Sequence record: OR437326.1
Source: Escherichia phage iGC_PHA_EC001
Strand: one strand, 5' to 3'
DNA length: 64,000 bases
Shown: positions 34,138-38,619 of the stretch, one piece after another
Position numbering within the stretch: the first letter of the stretch is position 1
Layout of the letters: each line of letters begins with the position of its first letter
Notes under the pieces: generated by a model
Database searches by the model: none
What the model saw: only the letters and a program-made list of their open reading frames with translations
Told to the model about the DNA's origin: nothing
Translations under genes and position numbers: made by a program

Positions 34138-34444
34138 CTTTAACCACCTCCAATTGCCTTTCGAGTTTGACTTTGTTTGAGAACTGATAATGACACAACT
34201 TACATTGCATGTCAACAATCTGATCGTGATTTAACCCTACAATTTTAACTTCCTTTGCACCATCCCATTCCAAATACTCAAAGCCATCCAAATGAGTACT
34301 CTTGTCCAACAAAAATGCTATCTGCTGCCATTCGATCTGAATGTCATTTAAATGATATGCTGCACAGAAGATATCCTCGTAGTAAAAGACGATCATTGTC
34401 ATTGCTTCGTCCAGCACAACTACCTCTTGTCTTGTAAATCTCAT
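34121..34444 (-). CDS. hypothetical protein (first gene of leftward block)
   Basis: RBS TAGGAGG; 107 aa. Confidence 0.5.
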   Translation of the reverse strand: MRFTRQEVVVLDEAMTMIVFYYEDIFCAAYHLNDIQIEWQQIAFLLDKSTHLDGFEYLEWDGAKEVKIVGLNHDQIVDMQCKLCHYQFSNKVKLERQLEVVKDDSTN

Positions 34445-34687
34445 TCTAGCCTCCTAAACGCGTCTCTGACGCACTTTTTATATATAAGATGATAAATCAC
34501 CTTACCTAGTAAGTGAACTTGCTCTACGAGCCTCTTATGAAGCTTATGTTATAGGCTATACTATTGCTACCTGTTTAAGCAAGGTTTTTGCACACAGAAA
34601 ATAATTTTAATAAAACTCTTGACTTTTGTGTTCGAAGTATGCTACCCTAGAAATCTATTAACGAGCGCAGCGAGTTAAGGTTTTAGG

Positions 34688-34905
34688 TTGTTGATGTAGT
34701 ACTCTGTACTCAAGTACTGTACTCCGTACTAGATTAATAATTATTAAATATTAATAATAAATAATTATTAGATCTAACAAACAGGTACAGTGTATCAGAA
34801 CTGGTACGTACAGATCAACTTCTATCAATTAAAAATAAAATAATAAATTATTATAAATAATACTTGATCTATAGATCAGTATGAAGTACAGTACGGAACA
34901 TCTTA
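34688..34905. repeat. strand-switch region with clustered GTAC(T) repeats, AT-rich palindromes (TAATAATTATTA x2) and GATCTATAGATC palindrome
   Basis: five GTACT within 34697-34730 (gtagtactctgtactcaagtactgtactccgtact), further GTAC copies at about 34784-34815 and 34884-34895; no ORFs; lies between divergent gene blocks. Confidence 0.6.
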
Positions 34906-34923
34906 ACAAGATGGAGGTGTGCA

Positions 34924-35109
34924 ATGATTAGCGAGAATCCGTGCAAATGGCATCATGTACCTATTAAAGATTGTATGTCTTGTAATCCACGTTCTATTTA
35001 TAACATTGCATCTTATGACGATGACATTGTGTTAGACGATGATGAAGGCTGGGAGGATTTAGATTGGACTGGTTATGAAACCAAAAAGGATAAAATTATT
35101 CCTAGTTGA
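34924..35109 (+). CDS. hypothetical small Cys-containing protein
   Basis: RBS GGAGGTGTGCA; 61 aa. Confidence 0.4.
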   Translation: MISENPCKWHHVPIKDCMSCNPRSIYNIASYDDDIVLDDDEGWEDLDWTGYETKKDKIIPS

Positions 35110-35146
35110 CTTAAGATATCCTTCGTGCTAAACTAGAAGTGAGGAG

Positions 35147-35398
35147 ATGCCGATCACTCCCCATTTGGGGTTCGAAGGATATATGCAAAATAGTTTTTAT
35201 TTTAGGTGCCGTGCTTGTAATAGGCATTTGACAAACCACTCCAGACGTGATAAAAATGGAGTCATCAAGGAATCAGACCTCTGTTCTATTTGCACAGGTT
35301 TGGCTTTTGATGATAGTCTCGAAAGGGTTTATCAGCATCAATGTATAACAGACGTTCTCGTGTCAAACTTGGTAGAGGACGAACAACTAACAGATTAG
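35147..35398 (+). CDS. hypothetical small zinc-finger-like protein
   Basis: CRACNRH ... CSICTG Cys pairs; RBS GAGGAG. Confidence 0.4.
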   Translation: MPITPHLGFEGYMQNSFYFRCRACNRHLTNHSRRDKNGVIKESDLCSICTGLAFDDSLERVYQHQCITDVLVSNLVEDEQLTD

Positions 35399-35406
35399 GA
35401 GGAACA

Positions 35407-35655
35407 ATGTCTCTATTAGAAAAACACGTGTTTGAAGATGGTAACGGCAATGCAGTTTTTCTTTTCCATCCAGAAAAATACACATCTGAAAACAATGGTA
35501 CAACTTCTATTGTAATCACTAAAGATGTTAAAGTTATTGATTTCTTGGCTCTGATGCGAGAGATGGATCTTGAAATTAACACTTTTAACGCAGAAGCTTT
35601 GGTTGTTGCTCTTCTGGAAAAGAAAGATAGTGAAGAAGTAGCAGAATATGCTTAA
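35407..35655 (+). CDS. hypothetical protein
   Basis: start at MSLLEKHVF after AGGAGGAACA RBS (track ORF 35341-35655). Confidence 0.4.
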   Translation: MSLLEKHVFEDGNGNAVFLFHPEKYTSENNGTTSIVITKDVKVIDFLALMREMDLEINTFNAEALVVALLEKKDSEEVAEYA

Positions 35656-35662
35656 ATAACTA

Positions 35663-35693
35663 TTGACAAACGTATCCTTCATATGTTAGGATA
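35663..35693 (+). promoter_or_regulatory. sigma70-like promoter (AACTATTGACAA family, copy 1)
   Basis: TTGACA at 35663-35668, TAGGAT 18 nt downstream; same -35 context repeated at 36250 and 37212. Confidence 0.45.
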
Positions 35694-35901
35694 CGTTCAT
35701 CAAGTGTGGTAACAGGGTCGTTGACTTTTGTTAAGAGGGGCTTGCACTGCGGTAGTGTTAGAGACTACTTCTTCAGAGGTTAGCTACCAAAGAGGAAAAG
35801 GAATAGTCTCGGCTCAAGAACTTTTACGCTGAAAGTTGGGCTTGGTCTTAGAGAATGTAGCGGTTCTCTACAATCGTCAGCGTCTCTGTTACCACATTTA
35901 T

Positions 35902-35976
35902 GGCCCTGTAGCTCAATGGGAGAGCTGTCGGCTCATAACCGATAGGTAGCTGGATCGAAACCAGCCAGGGCCACCA
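35902..35976 (+). tRNA. tRNA-Met (anticodon CAT; could alternatively be Ile2/lysidine)
   Basis: acceptor GGCCCTG/CAGGGCC, D-arm TAGCTCAATGGGAGAGC, anticodon loop CTCATAA, T-arm GCTGGATCGAAACCAGC, encoded CCA. Confidence 0.7.
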
Positions 35977-35978
35977 AA

Positions 35979-36053
35979 GTCTTTATGGTGTAATGGATAG
36001 CACAGGAGTCTTCTAAACTCTTAGTCAAGGTTCGATTCCTTGTAAAGACACCA
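35979..36053 (+). tRNA. tRNA-Arg (anticodon TCT)
   Basis: acceptor GTCTTTA/TAAAGAC, anticodon loop CTTCTAA, T-arm CAAGGTTCGATTCCTTG, CCA encoded. Confidence 0.7.
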
Positions 36054-36249
36054 GAACATTTTAACATGAATTAGCTCAAGTGATTTGAACCCACTACTGA
36101 TCATGGTGGCAGAGAATGAGGCAAGTATGTCAGACATTATAAACAAAGGCCACGGTTATATTAGAAGACATAAATGCTCGAAGAGCACCGTTCGTGGAGA
36201 ACGGGGGTTGGTGGAGTCACCATTCATGGTAAAATGTTTTAAAAAACTA

Positions 36250-36280
36250 TTGACAACAAACATTATTTTATGTTAGATTA
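36250..36280 (+). promoter_or_regulatory. sigma70-like promoter (AACTATTGACAA family, copy 2)
   Basis: TTGACA at 36250-36255, TAGATT 18 nt downstream, immediately upstream of tRNA-Ser. Confidence 0.45.
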
Positions 36281-36287
36281 TAAGTAT

Positions 36288-36378
36288 GGAAGGGCAAATC
36301 GATGTGGCGACGAAAACGGTCTTGAAAACCGCCGAGCTTGAAAGAGCCTTGGGAGTTCGACTCTCCCTCCTTCCGCCA
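36288..36378 (+). tRNA. tRNA-Ser (anticodon TGA), type II with long variable arm
   Basis: acceptor GGAAGGG/TCCTTCC, anticodon arm CGGTCTTGAAAACCG, T-arm GGGAGTTCGACTCTCCC, CCA. Confidence 0.65.
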
Positions 36379-36383
36379 GATTA

Positions 36384-36469
36384 GGTAGATTGGTGAAATG
36401 GTAGCCACGACAGTTTGCTAAACTGTAGTCGGAAACGGCGTGTAGGTTCGAGTCCTACATCTACCGCCA
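36384..36469 (+). tRNA. tRNA-Ser (anticodon GCT), type II
   Basis: acceptor GGTAGAT/ATCTACC, anticodon arm ACAGTTTGCTAAACTGT, T-arm GTAGGTTCGAGTCCTAC, CCA. Confidence 0.65.
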
Positions 36470-36599
36470 AGTTCTTTTTAATGTAGCTTACTTTAGCAGA
36501 GTAAATCTTCGGCAAGTGGCGGTAACCACTTTACCGATACCTCATAGTTAGTGGTCTGAACACTGGCTATTTTAAAAAGAATTTAAATATTAGTATTTA

Positions 36600-36687
36600 G
36601 GTGAGTTAATTCCGTAGGGGTAGCGGGGCAGACTGTAAATCTGTTATCATTGCGATTCGGGTGGTTCGACTCCATCACTCACCACCA
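36600..36687 (+). tRNA. tRNA-Tyr (anticodon GTA), type II
   Basis: acceptor GGTGAGT/ACTCACC, anticodon arm GCAGACTGTAAATCTGT (near identical to E. coli tRNA-Tyr), T-arm GGTGGTTCGACTCCATC, CCA. Confidence 0.65.
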
Positions 36688-36693
36688 AATTAA

Positions 36694-36779
36694 GATGAGT
36701 TGGCTGAATGGTTTAAGCGGCGGACTGTTAATCCGTGTTCGAAAGAACAATATAGGTTCGAATCCTATACTCATCGCCA
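36694..36779 (+). tRNA. tRNA with anticodon GTT (Asn by anticodon) but atypical long variable arm
   Basis: acceptor GATGAGT/ACTCATC, anticodon stem-loop GCGGA-CTGTTAA-TCCGT at positions 27-43, extra hairpin GTTCGAAAGAAC, T-arm ATAGGTTCGAATCCTAT, CCA. Confidence 0.45.
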
Positions 36780-36786
36780 GAATTAT

Positions 36787-36862
36787 GGACTTGTAGAGTT
36801 AAGGTAAACCCCAGTAGCCAAGAGGCTTCTGGAATTGCAGGTATCGAATCCTGCCGAGTCCC
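36787..36862 (+). ncRNA. tRNA-like element without canonical anticodon arm (possible pseudo-tRNA or small RNA)
   Basis: acceptor pairing GGACTTG/CGAGTCC and T-arm-like GCAGGTATCGAATCCTGC, but central region folds as CCAG-T-AGCC-AAGA-GGCT-T-CTGG hairpin. Confidence 0.3.
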
Positions 36863-36868
36863 AGCTTT

Positions 36869-36943
36869 GCTCCTATAGTATAATGGCTATTACAACGGTT
36901 TTGTAATCCGTGGATCTCTGTTCGATTCAGAGTGGGAGCACCA
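36869..36943 (+). tRNA. tRNA-Thr (anticodon TGT)
   Basis: acceptor GCTCCTA/TGGGAGC, anticodon loop TTTGTAA, T-arm CTCTGTTCGATTCAGAG, CCA. Confidence 0.7.
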
Positions 36944-37211
36944 ACACAACATTAAGGGCACTGTGATTGATCGTCGTATCCTGTGCACAAGGTCTGTTCG
37001 AAAGACAGTGTTCTTAGTATTGTGTTGATCACAAAAAGAGTCACCTGAAACTTGACCGGAGTAGGGTTGGATGGGGTAAAGAAGAAGCGGATTCTCCCAT
37101 CGACGTGATAGTTTTCCAGTGTTGCAAGCGACACCCAGGAGGTTAATCACAACCGAACGTAGGGCTAGTCACCCAAAGGGATACTCGTCACTGTCCCACT
37201 CAATAAAACTA

Positions 37212-37242
37212 TTGACAACCAATAGTAAAATGTAGTATAGTA
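37212..37242 (+). promoter_or_regulatory. sigma70-like promoter (AACTATTGACAA family, copy 3)
   Basis: TTGACA at 37212-37217, TATAGT 18 nt downstream, upstream of tRNA-Gly. Confidence 0.45.
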
Positions 37243-37252
37243 AATATGTAGG

Positions 37253-37326
37253 GCGTTCTTGGTGTAGCGGTAGCATTCCGTCCTTCCAAGTCGGCGGCAC
37301 GAGTTCGATCCTCGTAGAACGCTCCA
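37253..37326 (+). tRNA. tRNA-Gly (anticodon TCC)
   Basis: acceptor GCGTTCT/AGAACGC, anticodon loop CTTCCAA, T-arm ACGAGTTCGATCCTCGT, CCA. Confidence 0.65.
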
Positions 37327-37424
37327 AATTATTTAATAAAGGGTTGCCAGAAAACTTTCTCTTTTACTCATGGTTTTCTCCTTCTCTCACACTTCTTCTG
37401 GTTGCCCTTCATTAAATGATTTAT

Positions 37425-37500
37425 TGGTTTGTAGTGTAGTCAGGTAGCACACGACACTTTGACTGTCGTAGGTTTGGTTCAAATCCAGACAGACCAGCCA
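37425..37500 (+). tRNA. tRNA-Gln (anticodon TTG)
   Basis: acceptor TGGTTTG/CAGACCA, anticodon arm CGACACTTTGACTGTCG, T-arm TTTGGTTCAAATCCAGA, CCA. Confidence 0.7.
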
Positions 37501-37505
37501 TATAA

Positions 37506-37582
37506 CGGAATTTAGCTCAGTTTGGTAGAGCATACGCTTTGGGAGCGTAGGGTCGCAGGTTCGAATCCTGCAATTCCGACCA
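37506..37582 (+). tRNA. tRNA-Pro (anticodon TGG)
   Basis: acceptor CGGAATT/AATTCCG, D-arm GCTCAGTTTGGTAGAGC, anticodon arm TACGCTTTGGGAGCGTA, T-arm GCAGGTTCGAATCCTGC, CCA. Confidence 0.75.
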
Positions 37583-37588
37583 ATTTAA

Positions 37589-37662
37589 TGTTTCGTAGTT
37601 CAATGGTAGAACCCACGACTGATAATCGTGAGATACAAGTTCGATTCTTGTCGAAACAACCA
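37589..37662 (+). tRNA. tRNA-Ile (anticodon GAT)
   Basis: acceptor TGTTTCG/CGAAACA, anticodon arm CACGACTGATAATCGTG, T-arm ACAAGTTCGATTCTTGT, CCA. Confidence 0.75.
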
Positions 37663-37664
37663 GT

Positions 37665-37734
37665 TTCCCGTTAGACTTACAGGATAAGAGTTCCACAACT
37701 TATTGTGATGCTGGTTCGAATCCAGCACGGGATA
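37665..37734 (+). ncRNA. tRNA-like element, anticodon not assignable
   Basis: acceptor TTCCCGT/ACGGGAT (1:72 mismatch) and canonical T-arm GCTGGTTCGAATCCAGC, but no 5-bp/7-nt anticodon stem-loop could be folded (CACAA-CTTA-TTGTG tetraloop hairpin instead); no encoded CCA. Confidence 0.3.
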
Positions 37735-37740
37735 CCTAAT

Positions 37741-37819
37741 AGCGGGATAGAGGAGTCTGGTCGTCCTCGCCAGTTTCATATGCTGGAGATCATCGGTTCA
37801 AATCCGATTCCCGCCTCCA
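37741..37819 (+). tRNA. tRNA-Met-like (anticodon CAT) with unpaired 1:72 and TTCAAAT T-loop (possible initiator-type)
   Basis: acceptor AGCGGGA/TCCCGCC (A1 x C72), anticodon arm CCAGT-TTCATAT-GCTGG, T-arm ATCGGTTCAAATCCGAT, CCA. Confidence 0.5.
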
Positions 37820-37934
37820 AATATCGCTTGCCAGCGGTATCTTTGAAGACCTTGCCTGGTTCCTTCTAAGATGGAGGGGTGCGACTCCTTAACGCACAAT
37901 TATAATAAAGCATTTCAAATTAACAGTGTTTATT

Positions 37935-37957
37935 AGCCTCCTTATTGGAGGCTTTTT
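37935..37957 (+). terminator. rho-independent terminator at end of tRNA cluster
   Basis: AGCCTCC TTATT GGAGGCT hairpin followed by TTTTT. Confidence 0.7.
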
Positions 37958-37976
37958 GCTATCTATTGAATAAAAC

Positions 37977-38005
37977 TTGACTTATTATTTTTTATATGTT
38001 AAGAT
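37977..38005 (+). promoter_or_regulatory. sigma70-like promoter
   Basis: TTGACT - 17 nt - TAAGAT, upstream of RBS AGGAGG of gene 38027. Confidence 0.45.
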
Positions 38006-38026
38006 AAAGTTTAGGAGGATTTTATT

Positions 38027-38323
38027 ATGCCTAAACTAAAACGTGGTCGTGGAAGACCAACAGCCGAAATGCAACAGATTTACGCAATGGATGCGGCGCA
38101 AGCAAGTGTAAAAGAATTATTTGCAGAGCATTATTTAGAAGCTATGCGGTATATTGTTGAACTTGTTAATGATAAGGATGCAGCAAAACCTCTCCGCTTC
38201 CAAGCAGCTAAAGCTATTAAAGAGCAAGTAGAAGAATGGTTAGAAGAACATTATGAAGCTATGGAAGAAGAAACCCCTGCCGTGCAGAATACAGATGACG
38301 TTCCTAAAAAGATCGTAATCTAA
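38027..38323 (+). CDS. hypothetical protein (possible DNA-binding protein / small terminase subunit candidate)
   Basis: 98 aa, basic N-terminus MPKLKRGRGRPT, acidic C-terminus; first gene of rightward module; function is inference. Confidence 0.45.
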   Translation: MPKLKRGRGRPTAEMQQIYAMDAAQASVKELFAEHYLEAMRYIVELVNDKDAAKPLRFQAAKAIKEQVEEWLEEHYEAMEEETPAVQNTDDVPKKIVI

Positions 38324-38338
38324 TCCCTCTCCTCTCTT

Positions 38339-38405
38339 GGGGCTTTGCCCCTCCTCCTTGTTATTTTTAACACCCCTCTCCGAAAGGTTAGGGGCTTTTT
38401 TATTT
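38339..38405 (+). terminator. tandem GC hairpins with T-runs (terminator region)
   Basis: GGGGCTTTGCCCC at 38339-38351 and CCCCTCTCCGAAAGGTTAGGGG followed by CTTTTTTATTTTT. Confidence 0.6.
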
Positions 38406-38412
38406 TTAATGC

Positions 38413-38442
38413 TTGCAATTATATATCATTTTGTGATAAGAT
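38413..38442 (+). promoter_or_regulatory. sigma70-like promoter
   Basis: TTGCAA - 18 nt - TAAGAT. Confidence 0.4.
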
Positions 38443-38463
38443 CAGATATGAGGAGGATAAAAT

Positions 38464-38619
38464 ATGCGCAATTTTGTAGTTAAAAATGATTTTAACCGTT
38501 CTTCTTATCATAAAGATAAAAAGAATGATTACACACGGGCTTGGAACTTGGAGGAAGAACTTTATGATGACAGAGAAGACTTGGGAAGAGATCCTAGCGG
38601 AGGCTCAACCAATGGAAGT
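38464..38619 (+). CDS. hypothetical small protein (51 aa)
   Basis: strong RBS GAGGAGGATAAAAT before ATG; overlapping alternative small ORFs (38486-38701 in track; 38564-38701 with RBS GGAGGAAG) make this region ambiguous. Confidence 0.35.

What the first reader, a model, noticed from the sequence alone, without database searches (positions are those of the whole stretch)
36944..37252. Promoter-containing non-tRNA spacers inside the tRNA cluster, with a repeated AACTATTGACAA promoter and recurring TTCGAAAG hairpins
Spacers of about 200-300 nt (35694-35901, 36054-36287, 36470-36599, 36944-37252, 37327-37424) separate tRNA groups and carry neither a tRNA fold nor a credible ORF. Three of them contain near-identical sigma70-like promoters (AACTATTGACAA-N18-TA(G/T)A(T/G)T at 35663, 36250, 37212). 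Short hairpins with a TTCGAAAG loop recur (36737-36750, 36995-37008). The cluster therefore looks like several promoter-driven units that may also encode small stable RNAs, comparable to the species 1 and 2 RNAs of the T4 tRNA region.
Basis: partly seen in the sequence, partly recalled or inferred. Interest (0 to 1): 0.45.

Follow-up and report, generated by a model that had tools for sequence, protein, structure and literature searches.

The report
Structured RNA modules between phage tRNAs
The 309-base gap between two tRNA genes of this E. coli phage holds two conserved folded RNA elements and a promoter; one element, an ~85-base hairpin, also sits next to tRNA genes in unrelated phages and phage-plasmids, and neither matches any catalogued RNA family.

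Summary
The window comes from a phAPEC8-like (Phapecoctavirus) E. coli myophage.

**Observation.** The spacers and the three identical AACTATTGACAA promoters are real. The TTCGAAAG recurrence is no more than chance, and one copy lies inside a tRNA.

**What the flagged spacer (36944-37252) contains:**
- **S4a (36942-37027):** a hairpin RNA starting at the CCA end of tRNA-Thr. Its stem is supported by compensatory changes and its 40-nt core is nearly invariant. It recurs, in the same orientation as tRNAs and promoters where these are present, in Klebsiella and E. coli siphophages and prophages and in ~107-kb E. coli phage-plasmids.
- **S4b (37039-37199):** a multi-helix RNA conserved across part of the subfamily Stephanstirmvirinae, with compensatory changes in three helices and one swappable hairpin.
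- **Promoter P3 (37207-37241):** its -35 hexamer lies in a covarying inverted repeat. Transcription would start ~5 nt before tRNA-Gly.

**Other evidence.** Spacers S1 and S5 also show strong covariation. Nothing matches Rfam, T4 rnaC/rnaD, or any protein family.

**Interpretation.** These are most likely small structured RNAs, co-transcribed with the tRNAs and released by tRNA processing. This is like the T4 species 1/2 RNAs in kind, without homology. Expression, stability and function are untested.

The parts
36869..36943 (+). tRNA-Thr(UGU). Its 3' CCA abuts S4a, and its last two bases belong to the outer stem of S4a.
   Evidence: ARAGORN and Rfam, 59.5 bits. The same junction (GCACCA followed by ACACAACA) is seen in the SSU5-like phage-plasmid L288 and, as GCACCAATACAAC, in the L294-type SSU5-like contigs.
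36942..37027 (+). S4a, an ~85-nt hairpin RNA module.
- Outer stem: 36942-36949 pairs with 37020-37027.
- Main stem: 36951-36964 pairs with 37005-37018.
- Conserved core: 36965-37004 (GAUUGAUCGUCGUAUCCU[GUGCAC]AAGGUCUGUUCGAAAG).
- Apical 3-bp stem: 36980-36982 pairs with 36990-36992.
- 7-nt loop: 36983-36989, containing the palindrome GUGCAC.
   Evidence: - Fold z-score -2.6.
- 87.3% of stem cells pair, against 35-55% when partners are slid. Nine pairs change on both sides, against 1-4 when slid, and 0 of 500 shuffles reach this.
- Covariance model: 84.2 bits, E=1e-19 on the + strand; reverse-strand scores of family members are only 14-23 bits.
- Homologues in unrelated phages, prophages and phage-plasmids.
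37039..37199 (+). S4b, an ~160-nt multi-helix RNA module.
- Helix 37070-37075 / 37096-37101, capped by hairpin 37080-37083 / 37092-37095 with a GAAGCGGA loop.
- Variable hairpin 37105-37150, swapped between alleles.
- Conserved single strand ACCGAACGUAG, 37152-37162.
- Hairpin 37162-37164 / 37172-37174 with loop CUAGUCA.
- Hairpin 37178-37183 / 37192-37197 with loop CUCGUCAC.
   Evidence: - Syntenic (between tRNA-Thr and tRNA-Gly) and conserved in Klebsiella phage phi1_175008, Citrobacter phage Tr1 and metagenomic relatives L162, L164 and L258.
- 97.8% of cells pair, against 35-57% when slid. Six pairs change on both sides, against 0-2 when slid.
- No Rfam match in any allele.
- Thermodynamic z-scores of its parts are not significant, so the evidence is comparative only.
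37207..37241 (+). Promoter P3. AACTATTGACAA box, -35 TTGACA at 37212-37217, 18-nt spacer, -10 TATAGT at 37236-37241. The -35 lies inside the inverted repeat ACTATTG (37208-37214) / CAATAGT (37220-37226).
   Evidence: - Scan match 11 of 12.
- Exact 12-mer present three times.
- The -35, the -10 region and the inverted repeat are kept in relatives, with different stem sequences in the repeat.
- tRNA-Gly starts at 37253.
37253..37326 (+). tRNA-Gly(UCC), the first gene of the P3 unit.
35663..35692 (+). Promoter P1 (TTGACA, 18-nt spacer, TG-TAGGAT), with the same AACTATTGACAA box at 35658.
35702..35899 (+). S1, a ~195-nt structured RNA closed by a 16-bp stem that begins about where P1 transcription should start.
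   Evidence: - z-score -5.45.
- Compared with the 80%-identical phiWec179 allele: 44 variable columns, 8 compensatory pairs, 3 one-sided changes, 0 broken pairs.
- 99-100% identical in 61 records.
36054..36243 (+). S2, a ~190-nt structured spacer closed by a 17-bp stem, ending just before promoter P2.
   Evidence: z-score -3.76. Little variation is available: 1 compensatory pair, 4 one-sided changes, 1 broken pair.
36250..36279 (+). Promoter P2 (TTGACA, 18-nt spacer, TG-TAGATT), with the same box at 36245. It ends 8 nt before the Ser(UGA)-type tRNA at 36288.
36470..36599 (+). S3, a 130-nt spacer with an 11-bp closing stem.
   Evidence: z-score -3.27. Only a weak partial match in Tr1. This is the least supported module.
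37327..37424 (+). S5, a 98-nt hairpin with a long stem and a CU-rich ~33-nt loop that is invariant across relatives. The loop's complement reads GAAGGAGAAAACCAUGAG, an ideal ribosome-binding site plus AUG.
   Evidence: - z-score -5.16.
- 26 predicted pairs, 10 of them with compensatory changes, in 7 diverged phages.
- The hairpin is found only in Stephanstirmvirinae.
37820..37960 (+). S6, the 3' trailer of the cluster, ending in an intrinsic terminator (stem 37935-37953 followed by a T run).
   Evidence: 80-87% identical in L001 and L002.

Best explanation
**What it is.** The spacer 36944-37252 encodes two separate, selected, structured non-coding RNA modules (S4a and S4b), followed by a sigma70-type early promoter (P3).

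**How it is probably made (inferred).**
- S4a and S4b form the 3' part of a polycistronic precursor that starts at P2 (36250). The order is tRNA-Ser, tRNA-Ser, S3, tRNA-Tyr, tRNA(GUU), a tRNA-like element, tRNA-Thr, S4a, S4b.
- There is no terminator before 37935, so read-through into the P3 unit is likely.
- Host tRNA-processing enzymes set the modules free as by-products of tRNA maturation. These are RNase E or exonucleases just after each CCA, and RNase P at each tRNA 5' end.
- The modules' 5' and 3' ends are paired in long closing stems, which should make them stable small RNAs.
- The same design holds for S1, S2, S5 and probably S3.

**What it probably does (inferred, low certainty).** The modules most likely act in trans on host or phage translation or tRNA-related machinery rather than as mere spacers. 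Three observations point that way:
- The loops and cores are conserved far more strictly than the stems.
- S4a travels between unrelated phages, usually alongside tRNAs and in some phages with tmRNA-like pieces.
- The S5 loop is a perfect antisense of an ideal ribosome-binding site.

**Shown versus inferred.** Shown: sequence conservation, strand-specific base-pair covariation, synteny, and promoter sequence and position. Inferred: transcription, processing, stability and function.
For: **S4a**
- Its stems are kept through compensatory changes across four sequence types from different phage groups.
- The model scores 84-110 bits on the tRNA strand against 14-23 bits on the other strand. This argues for RNA rather than double-stranded DNA.
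- Its ends coincide with tRNA ends. It follows the CCA of tRNA-Thr directly in the window and in the L294-type SSU5-like contigs; in L288 another scaffold hairpin lies between tRNA-Thr and the S4a-like copy. It runs straight into tRNA-Arg(UCU) in prophage contigs.

**S4b**
- It stays between tRNA-Thr and tRNA-Gly in diverged relatives.
- Six pairs change on both sides, and 97.8% of cells pair.
- One hairpin is replaced by unrelated hairpins in different alleles while the flanks are kept.

**Other spacers**
- S5 has 10 compensatory pairs around an invariant loop.
- S1 has 8 compensatory pairs and none broken.
- Fold z-scores run from -3.3 to -5.5 for S1, S2, S3 and S5.

**Promoters**
- The exact 12-mer occurs three times, each copy with a good -10 hexamer ending 9-11 nt before the next RNA's 5' end.
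- P3 is conserved in relatives.

**No coding signal**.

**Processing model.** It follows the published E. coli pathway: RNase E cuts 1-3 nt after CCA, and RNase P cuts at 5' ends (PMC2190699 abstract).

**Precedent.** T4 rnaC and rnaD are annotated small stable RNAs lying beside tRNA-Arg.
Against: - No RNA-seq, Northern or 5'-end data exist for any Phapecoctavirus; the literature search found only genome reports.
- S4 as a whole is not unusually stable (z-score -1.2), and the S4b parts have z-scores near 0.
- Covariation rests on few independent lineages: 9-12 sequences in about 4-6 types. The shuffle control is not a probability.
- S4b is dispensable. Justusliebigvirus-type relatives carry an ORF in its place. 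In Tr1 and L162 it lies directly upstream of that ORF, so it may have begun as a 5' leader.
- S4a is absent from phi1_175008 and Tr1, which have another hairpin or nothing at that position.
- No target or partner has been identified for any module.
Confidence: 0.6

Rival explanations
1. The modules are cis-acting processing or insulator elements only. The folded spacers keep neighbouring tRNAs from misfolding, present double-stranded or defined sites to RNase III, E or P, and are degraded after cleavage. There is no trans-acting product.
For: - Every spacer pairs its own 5' and 3' ends in a long stem, as in the processing stems of rRNA operons (own knowledge).
- Module ends coincide with tRNA ends.
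- S4b and S4a are each missing in some relatives without loss of the flanking tRNAs.
Against: - A spacer role needs only a stem. Here the unpaired cores are the most conserved parts: the S4a 40-nt core is nearly invariant between AT-rich myophages and GC-rich Klebsiella prophages, and the S5 33-nt loop is invariant.
- Many tRNAs in the same cluster sit 2-8 nt apart with no such spacer.
Confidence: 0.2
2. S4a (and similar hairpins) is a DNA-level element. It would be a small mobile inverted-repeat element (MITE-, REP- or PATE-like) or a palindromic protein-binding site that has spread among phage genomes, not an RNA gene.
For: - It is a long inverted repeat present in unrelated phages, prophages and phage-plasmids with different flanks.
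- Nearly identical copies occur in many Klebsiella-type prophage contigs.
- The apical hexamers GTGCAC, GGGCCC and GCGCGC are DNA palindromes.
- The tRNA cluster is an insertion hot spot: an HNH endonuclease, an XRE-like gene and an extra ORF are seen there.
Against: - It is single-copy in every genome seen, whereas mobile repeats are normally multi-copy.
- Where tRNAs or a promoter are present, it lies on the same strand as them.
- The stems contain G-U pairs, so the model scores 60-90 bits lower on the opposite strand.
- No target-site duplications or transposase were noticed, but this was not searched systematically.
Confidence: 0.08
3. The spacers are decayed remnants of tRNA or tmRNA genes, that is pseudogenes left after a larger ancestral tRNA set shrank.
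For: - Relatives carry up to 19 tRNAs against 12 here.
- Two gaps do hold degenerate tRNA-like cloverleaves.
- In three other phage groups S4a-type hairpins lie in arrays that begin with tmRNA-like tag reading frames.
Against: - S4b, S5 and S6 occupy the same positions in the 17-19-tRNA relatives, so they do not replace lost tRNAs.
- There is no tRNA or tmRNA signal in S4 at E<=5.
- Pseudogenes would not keep pairs through compensatory changes.
Confidence: 0.07
4. The spacer encodes small proteins, for example the 86-codon or 60-codon minus-strand ORFs in S4, or a 12-codon minus-strand ORF behind the perfect ribosome-binding site in S5.
For: - Stop-free stretches of 64-76 codons exist on the minus strand in several alleles.
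- Some GenBank records annotate hypothetical proteins there.
- The minus strand of S5 reads AAGGAG, 6 nt, then ATG.
Against: - No Pfam or PHROG match.
- The frames and sequences are not conserved between diverged alleles, and the swapped hairpin changes length by non-multiples of three.
- The S5 mini-ORF changes frame and length among relatives after about 5 codons.
- The ORFs would be antisense to a tRNA operon, and no promoter for them was found.
Confidence: 0.03

Closest known systems
Phage T4 species 1 and species 2 RNAs (rnaC 139 nt, rnaD 119 nt)
   Same: - Both are small structured RNAs encoded inside a phage tRNA cluster, next to tRNA genes and on the same strand, with no known function.
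- rnaC is also strongly folded (z-score -4.6).
- T4 likewise has a homing-endonuclease gene (segB) inside the cluster, as the relative nepoznato does here.
   Different: - There is no sequence similarity; only T-arm words match true tRNAs.
- rnaC carries a tRNA-type T arm and acceptor-like stem, which S4a, S4b and S5 lack.
- The window has at least six such modules and internal promoters.
- S4a is shared with unrelated phages.
Bacterial and phage Y RNA-like RNAs (YrlA, Rfam RF02553)
   Same: Both are non-coding RNAs with paired 5' and 3' ends that lie near tRNA-like modules. The relative phi1_175008 gives two sub-threshold YrlA matches in the noncoding region upstream of its first tRNA (36 and 34 bits against a gathering score of 69).
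   Different: No YrlA match falls in any window spacer; the only hit, at 24 bits, covers true tRNAs. Whether a Ro/Rsr partner is present was not examined.
tmRNA and phage tmRNA genes (mycobacteriophage Bxz1 group, Bacillus phage G; PMC4131195)
   Same: In SCNJ1-C, Bas77 and SSU5-like phage-plasmids the S4a-type hairpin lies in a promoter-led noncoding array. Each array begins with a tag-like reading frame (ANEDRFLMAA*, ANDDVVLMAA*, ANEEVYLAVA*) and gives weak tmRNA matches.
   Different: The window has no tag frame and no tmRNA match. ARAGORN calls no tmRNA in L003 or L004, so even there it is at most tmRNA-like. S4a itself has no counterpart in the Rfam tmRNA models.
Kissing-loop dimerisation hairpins such as the HIV-1 DIS (own knowledge; a functional analogy only)
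   Same: Both are short hairpins whose loop carries a 6-nt self-complementary sequence. The variants seen here (GUGCAC, GCGCGC, GGGCCC) keep self-complementarity through paired changes at positions 2 and 5. GUGCAC and GCGCGC are also the two common DIS palindromes (own knowledge).
   Different: - There is no relatedness.
- The loop here is 7 nt on a 3-bp stem inside a larger conserved internal loop.
- One lineage has the non-palindromic GUGCCC.
- Dimerisation is untested.
Polycistronic bacterial tRNA operons processed by RNase E and RNase P (PMC2190699)
   Same: The layout is tRNAs in a row, with promoters a few nt upstream of a mature 5' end and a single terminator at the end. The inferred release mechanism is the one described in that paper's abstract.
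   Different: Host operons have short unstructured spacers. Here spacers of 100-300 nt carry conserved folded modules, and the cluster has three identical internal promoters.

Membership tests
T4-type small stable RNAs of phage tRNA clusters (rnaC/rnaD) | Encoded within a phage tRNA gene cluster, on the same strand as the tRNAs | tested here: met
   S4a and S4b lie between tRNA-Thr and tRNA-Gly on the + strand. T4 rnaC and rnaD lie next to tRNA-Arg.
T4-type small stable RNAs of phage tRNA clusters (rnaC/rnaD) | Sequence or structure homology to rnaC or rnaD | tested here: not met
   A sensitive blastn of rnaC and rnaD against 35600-38000 gives only chance or T-arm words (E>=0.3).
T4-type small stable RNAs of phage tRNA clusters (rnaC/rnaD) | Accumulates as a discrete stable RNA processed from the tRNA precursor | not testable with these tools
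   No transcript data. The literature search found only genome reports.
tRNA (RF00005) / tRNA pseudogene | Cloverleaf with acceptor, D, anticodon and T arms | tested here: not met
   There is no ARAGORN or Rfam tRNA hit in 36944-37252, even at E<=5.
tmRNA | tRNA-like domain plus a tag reading frame | tested here: not met
   There is no tmRNA call or Rfam tmRNA hit in the window cluster. tmRNA-like tag frames occur only in other phages that share S4a.
Y RNA-like (YrlA, RF02553) | Match to the YrlA covariance model at the gathering score | tested here: not met
   The only hit is 24 bits, over true tRNAs at 37527-37646 (gathering score 69).
Any Rfam 15 family | Covariance-model match in S4a or S4b, in the window or in diverged homologues | tested here: not met
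   Searches give no match over S4a or S4b in the window or in L001, L002, L003, L004, L162, L164 or L288.
Sigma70-type promoter | -35 and -10 hexamers at 16-18 nt spacing, correctly placed upstream of a transcribed gene | tested here: met
   - TTGACA, 18-nt spacer, TATAGT (11/12) at 37212-37241, 11 nt before tRNA-Gly.
- P1 and P2 score 10/12 with TG extensions.
- The exact 12-mer occurs three times.
- Conserved in relatives.
- Actual transcription starts were not tested.
Structured non-coding RNA (general criterion) | Base pairs maintained by compensatory substitutions, strand-specific | tested here: met
   - S4a: 9 pairs changed on both sides against 1-4 when slid.
- S4b: 6 pairs against 0-2.
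- Strand asymmetry of 60-90 bits for S4a.
Mobile inverted-repeat DNA element (MITE/REP-like) | Multiple copies per genome, in both orientations, with target-site duplications | tested here: not met
   - One place per record in nearly all cases.
- One full-scoring copy per locus.
- Same strand as the tRNAs or promoter wherever these were present.
- Target-site duplications were not searched systematically.
Kissing-loop (self-dimerising) hairpin | Self-complementary loop sequence kept by covariation | tested here: inconclusive
   Three of the four observed loop hexamers are palindromes, in five stem contexts. One lineage has GUGCCC. My own rough combinatorial estimate for 3 of 4 by chance is about 0.03.

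The most novel reading that the evidence does not exclude
S4a belongs to an unrecognised class of portable RNA cassettes in enterobacterial phages.

- A common hairpin scaffold (closing stem CACAAC.../...GUUGUG) carries swappable apical 'cargo'. It is inserted next to tRNA genes so that host tRNA-processing enzymes cut it out.
- The most widespread cargo, the S4a core, would act through a self-complementary kissing loop (GUGCAC, GCGCGC or GGGCCC). It would dimerise, or pair with a sister module, to form a particle that binds or decoys a host factor of translation, trans-translation or tRNA surveillance.
- Together with S4b, S5 (an anti-ribosome-binding-site loop) and the tmRNA-like pieces seen in other phages, this would mean phage tRNA clusters are multi-RNA host-takeover or counter-defence operons rather than codon-supply loci.
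Probability: 0.15. Interest if true: 0.8.

Novelty: new variant of a known kind. Interest (0 to 1): 0.55.

Why it matters
Phage tRNA clusters are usually annotated as lists of tRNAs, and the DNA between them is ignored. In 70 or more sequenced Phapecoctavirus genomes these spacers are unannotated or carry spurious 'hypothetical proteins'.

The spacers hold at least four RNA families under structural selection. One of them (S4a) is exchanged among myophages, siphophages, prophages and phage-plasmids. This gives concrete candidates for new phage small RNAs, none of which is in Rfam.

It also revives a 50-year-old open question: what are the non-tRNA stable RNAs of phage tRNA regions, such as T4 species 1 and 2, for? 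The question becomes directly testable in easily handled E. coli phages.

The practical gains are better annotation and defined elements to delete or mutate when studying phage tRNAs and tRNA-targeting defence systems.

Tried and rejected
- **Rfam.** Gathering search on the whole window, then E<=5 on 34400-38500, then E<=0.5-1 on homologous loci. Nothing covers S4a, S4b, S1, S2, S3 or S5.
- **tRNA or tmRNA in the spacer.** None found.
- **Protein coding.** No Pfam or PHROG hits and no conserved frame.
- **Homology to T4 rnaC/rnaD.** None.
- **TTCGAAAG as a repeat family.** Not above chance.
- **A target for the S5 loop.**
  - None in the window.
  - No second site in most Phapecoctavirus genomes.
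  - A 22/23 match to the start of a small prophage gene in ~10% of E. coli genomes is not significant (E=0.5).
  - Exact matches in other viral contigs are ordinary gene starts on the other strand, with no hairpin.
- **Wasted scans.** The patterns used for the genome contigs and metagenome-contig scans were too loose and returned mostly chance hits in GC-rich genomes. Only L252 and L258 were real.
- **Inner pairings of the S4a core.** RNAalifold proposes them, but they never vary, and one is broken in the SSU5-like variant. They are therefore neither supported nor refuted.
- **Long-range or pseudoknot pairings in S4b** (UGAC with the GUCA loops). All positions are invariant, so there is no information.
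- **Literature.** Searches for phage tRNA-cluster small RNAs, phage tmRNA-like RNAs and Phapecoctavirus transcriptomics found nothing that describes these elements.
Full report
**Source and setting**

The region 35600-38000 is 96-98% identical to some 70 phAPEC8-like E. coli myophages (genus Phapecoctavirus, subfamily Stephanstirmvirinae). On the + strand lies a tRNA cluster.
- ARAGORN tRNAs between 35902 and 37819.
- Rfam adds a Tyr-type tRNA at 36600-36684 and a sub-threshold type-II tRNA at 36288-36374. tRNAscan-based annotation in relatives labels these Tyr-GTA and Ser-TGA.
- Two further gaps, 36780-36868 and 37663-37740, fold as cloverleaf-like elements. They have acceptor and T arms but no 7-nt anticodon loop.

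**Check of the observation**

*Promoters.*
- The 12-mer AACTATTGACAA is present exactly at 35658, 36245 and 37207. A fourth site elsewhere has one mismatch. That is 4 sites against 0.8 expected, with no shuffle reaching 4.
- Each copy is followed after 18 nt by a -10 hexamer: TAGGAT and TAGATT, both with an upstream TG, and TATAGT, which gives an 11/12 match.
- The -10 hexamers end 9-11 nt before S1's closing stem, tRNA-Ser(UGA) and tRNA-Gly respectively. This is what one expects if they drive these RNAs.
- The generic promoter scan is not enriched overall (9 sites against 9.8 expected). The case rests on the exact repeat, its placement and its conservation.
- P3's -35 and -10 regions are kept in distant relatives. 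The -35 sits in an inverted repeat whose arms differ in sequence but stay complementary in at least five versions.

*TTCGAAAG.* The motif is not a meaningful repeat. There are 3 copies against 2.7 expected. One is the variable arm of the tRNA with anticodon GTT. The other lies in the S4a core.

*ORFs.* The ORFs in the spacers are short, have no Pfam or PHROG match, and do not keep a frame among alleles.

**Anatomy of the flagged spacer**

It has three parts.

*S4a (36942-37027).*
- It is a hairpin that begins with the last two bases of the tRNA-Thr CCA.
- It has an 8-bp outer stem, a 14-bp main stem, and a 40-nt core, GAUUGAUCGUCGUAUCCU[GUGCAC]AAGGUCUGUUCGAAAG.
- The core contains a 3-bp apical stem and a 7-nt loop (coordinates read).

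*S4b (37039-37199).*
- It is a multi-helix element with conserved single strands (ACUUGACCGGAGUAGG and ACCGAACGUAG).
- One helix is capped by a hairpin with a GA(N)CGG-type loop.
- A central hairpin is variable.
- Two small 3' hairpins have loops CUAGUCA and CUCGUCAC.

*Promoter P3 (37207-37241).*

**S4a is a family shared by unrelated phages**

BLAST of the spacer unexpectedly hit Klebsiella siphophage vB_KpnS_SCNJ1-C and E. coli phages Bas77, Bas79 and Bas81, with the match confined to S4a.
- A pattern scan for the core found 28 IMG/VR contigs, and a looser scan found 56. Most are 30-50 kb prophage-like contigs, plus ~100-114 kb contigs.
- In complete E. coli genomes the element is found in 118 places. 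Of these, 107 are on plasmids; the ones listed are ~94-113 kb, and the one examined is SSU5-like.
- Every copy whose flanks I examined lies in a noncoding stretch. It is on the same strand as a nearby promoter or tRNAs where these are present.
  - In SCNJ1-C it lies 120 nt upstream of tRNA-Arg and tRNA-Met.
  - In several prophage contigs it runs directly into tRNA-Arg(UCU).
  - In the SSU5-like plasmids it sits in an array Asn-(Tyr)-Thr-[S4a]-Ser. In the L294-type contigs it starts right at the tRNA-Thr CCA, as in the window. In L288 tRNA-Thr ends in the junction CACCA|ACACAAC, but another scaffold hairpin separates it from the S4a-like copy.
- On a 12-sequence alignment of the four sequence types, 87.3% of stem cells pair against 35-55% with slid partners. 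Nine pairs changed on both sides against 1-4 when slid, and 0 of 500 shuffles reach this.
- A covariance model scores the window copy at 84 bits (E about 1e-19). All family members score 84-110 bits on the tRNA strand but only 14-23 bits on the opposite strand. This points to RNA rather than a DNA palindrome.
- The core is almost invariant between AT-rich and GC-rich genomes.
- The loop hexamer occurs as GUGCAC, GGGCCC and GCGCGC. Each is self-complementary, and they appear in five different stem contexts. One lineage has GUGCCC. This suggests, but does not prove, loop-loop pairing.
- The same scaffold stem carries other apical sequences:
  - L288 2361-2449 and Bas77 ~1654-1743, both weak model hits;
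  - a window-like metagenomic contig, which has such an extra module between tRNA-Thr and S4a;
  - phi1_175008, L164 and L258, which have a different hairpin at the S4a position.

**S4b is a lineage-specific structured RNA**

- It is found only in Stephanstirmvirinae: Phapecoctavirus, Klebsiella phage phi1_175008, Citrobacter phage Tr1, and contigs L162, L164 and L258. It always lies between tRNA-Thr and tRNA-Gly.
- Within the genus the spacer is the variable spot of an otherwise 97-100% identical region: 83-86% identity over the whole spacer and 74-77% over S4b alone. This is because the central hairpin exists in at least three unrelated versions, each still a hairpin.
- On nine alleles, 97.8% of cells pair in the four well-aligned helices, against 35-57% when slid. 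Six pairs changed on both sides, against 0-2 when slid.
- A fifth helix (GAUGG(G)/(C)CCAUC, or GAUUGG/CCAAUC, or GGUUGG/CCAACC) also co-varies by eye, but an indel misaligns it.
- Thermodynamic z-scores of S4b pieces are unremarkable.
- S4b is absent from Justusliebigvirus-type relatives, which carry a ~107-codon ORF there. Tr1 and L162 have S4b followed directly by that ORF. S4b may therefore once have served as a leader, but it persists without the ORF in Phapecoctavirus.

**The other spacers behave the same way**

- **S5 (37327-37424):** 26 predicted pairs, 10 of them compensated, surround an invariant 33-nt CU-rich loop in seven diverged phages. The loop's complement is GAAGGAGAAAACCAUGAG, an ideal ribosome-binding site plus start codon. 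No convincing target was found.
- **S1:** z-score -5.45. It keeps all 66 predicted pairs against an 80%-identical allele, with 8 compensatory changes.
- **S2 and S3:** both fold well (z-scores -3.8 and -3.3), but little variation is available.
- **S6:** conserved, and it ends in the only terminator of the cluster.

**How it most likely works**

- Three identical early-type promoters divide the cluster into units: S1-Met-Arg-S2, then Ser-Ser-S3-Tyr-tRNA(GUU)-tRNA-like-Thr-S4a-S4b, then Gly-S5-Gln-Pro-Ile-tRNA-like-Met-S6. Read-through is possible up to the terminator at 37935.
- By the established E. coli pathway, RNase E cuts just after CCA and RNase P cuts at tRNA 5' ends (PMC2190699). The modules would be released automatically, with their paired ends protecting them. 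This step is inferred.
- The cores and loops are conserved more strictly than the stems. Together with the portability of S4a, this argues for trans-acting products. What they bind is unknown.

**Comparison with known systems**

- The nearest known kind is the pair of T4 small stable RNAs rnaC and rnaD beside tRNA-Arg. There is no sequence similarity, and rnaC is tRNA-like whereas S4a and S4b are not.
- No Rfam family matches.
- YrlA-like and tmRNA-like signals occur only in relatives or in other S4a-bearing phages, and below threshold.
- The open-access literature on these phages consists of genome reports that list only tRNAs.

**Verdict**

The interpretation that extra small RNAs sit in a multi-promoter tRNA cluster is supported by comparative evidence but lacks expression data.

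The elements are new RNA families of a known general kind. One of them (S4a) has an unexpectedly wide, cassette-like distribution and a possibly self-pairing loop. Interest is moderate (0.55).

Noticed in passing
L003 ~1380-1415; L004 ~1370-1405; L288 1520-1552 (loci outside the window): The noncoding arrays that carry S4a-type hairpins begin, right after a promoter, with tmRNA-like tag reading frames. This is seen in Klebsiella phage SCNJ1-C (ANEDRFLMAA*), E. coli phage Bas77 (ANDDVVLMAA*) and SSU5-like E. coli phage-plasmids (ANEEVYLAVA*). Rfam tmRNA hits are sub-threshold, and ARAGORN calls no tmRNA in L003 or L004. Such phages are not in the 2014 list of phage tmRNAs (PMC4131195).
   Followed up: partly
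window 36694-36779: The tRNA called Asn (anticodon GTT) is 86 nt long. It has a long variable arm (GTGTTCGAAAGAACA) and G73, which is a Ser/Leu/Tyr-type body carrying an Asn anticodon. Relatives keep this form at 85-86 nt, whereas the SSU5-like tRNA-Asn is a normal 75 nt. Which amino acid it accepts is an open question.
   Followed up: no
window 36787-36865 and 37663-37738: Two tRNA-like cloverleaves have 7-bp acceptor stems and T arms (UAUCGAAU and UUCGAAU loops) but no 7-nt anticodon loop. ARAGORN and Rfam do not call them. They resemble T4 rnaC in kind.
   Followed up: partly
window 37327-37424 (S5): This hairpin has an invariant CU-rich loop that is the exact antisense of an ideal ribosome-binding site plus AUG. 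A 22/23 match to the start of a 56-codon prophage gene occurs in about 10% of E. coli genomes. That match is not statistically significant (E=0.5).
   Followed up: partly
window 37208-37226 (also 35670-35697 and 36258-36273): Inverted repeats overlap the three promoters. The P3 repeat includes the -35 hexamer and co-varies among relatives. Read on the minus strand, it is a hairpin followed by a U run, so it could act as an antisense terminator.
   Followed up: partly
window 34690-34910: An AT-rich block of palindromes (for example 34735-34770) is flanked by GTAC-rich short repeats. It lies between divergent gene groups, just upstream of the first promoter of this region. It may be a replication origin or a regulatory region.
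   Followed up: no
L002 2578-2904; L162 ~295-620; L165 2241-2565; L345 2070-2393; L040 2604-2945; L039 2126-2644: The tRNA cluster is an insertion hot spot in relatives.
- A ~107-codon ORF lies between tRNA-Thr and tRNA-Gly in Tr1, L162 and Justusliebigvirus-type phages.
- An XRE/antidote-like gene lies there in ZCKP1.
- An HNH endonuclease lies between tRNA-Gly and tRNA-Pro in nepoznato.
   Followed up: no
L001 906-1021 and 1056-1158: Klebsiella phage phi1_175008 has two sub-threshold Y RNA-like (YrlA) matches, at 36 and 34 bits, in the 700-nt noncoding stretch upstream of its first tRNA. The window's S1 and S2 occupy the equivalent position but give no such match.
   Followed up: no
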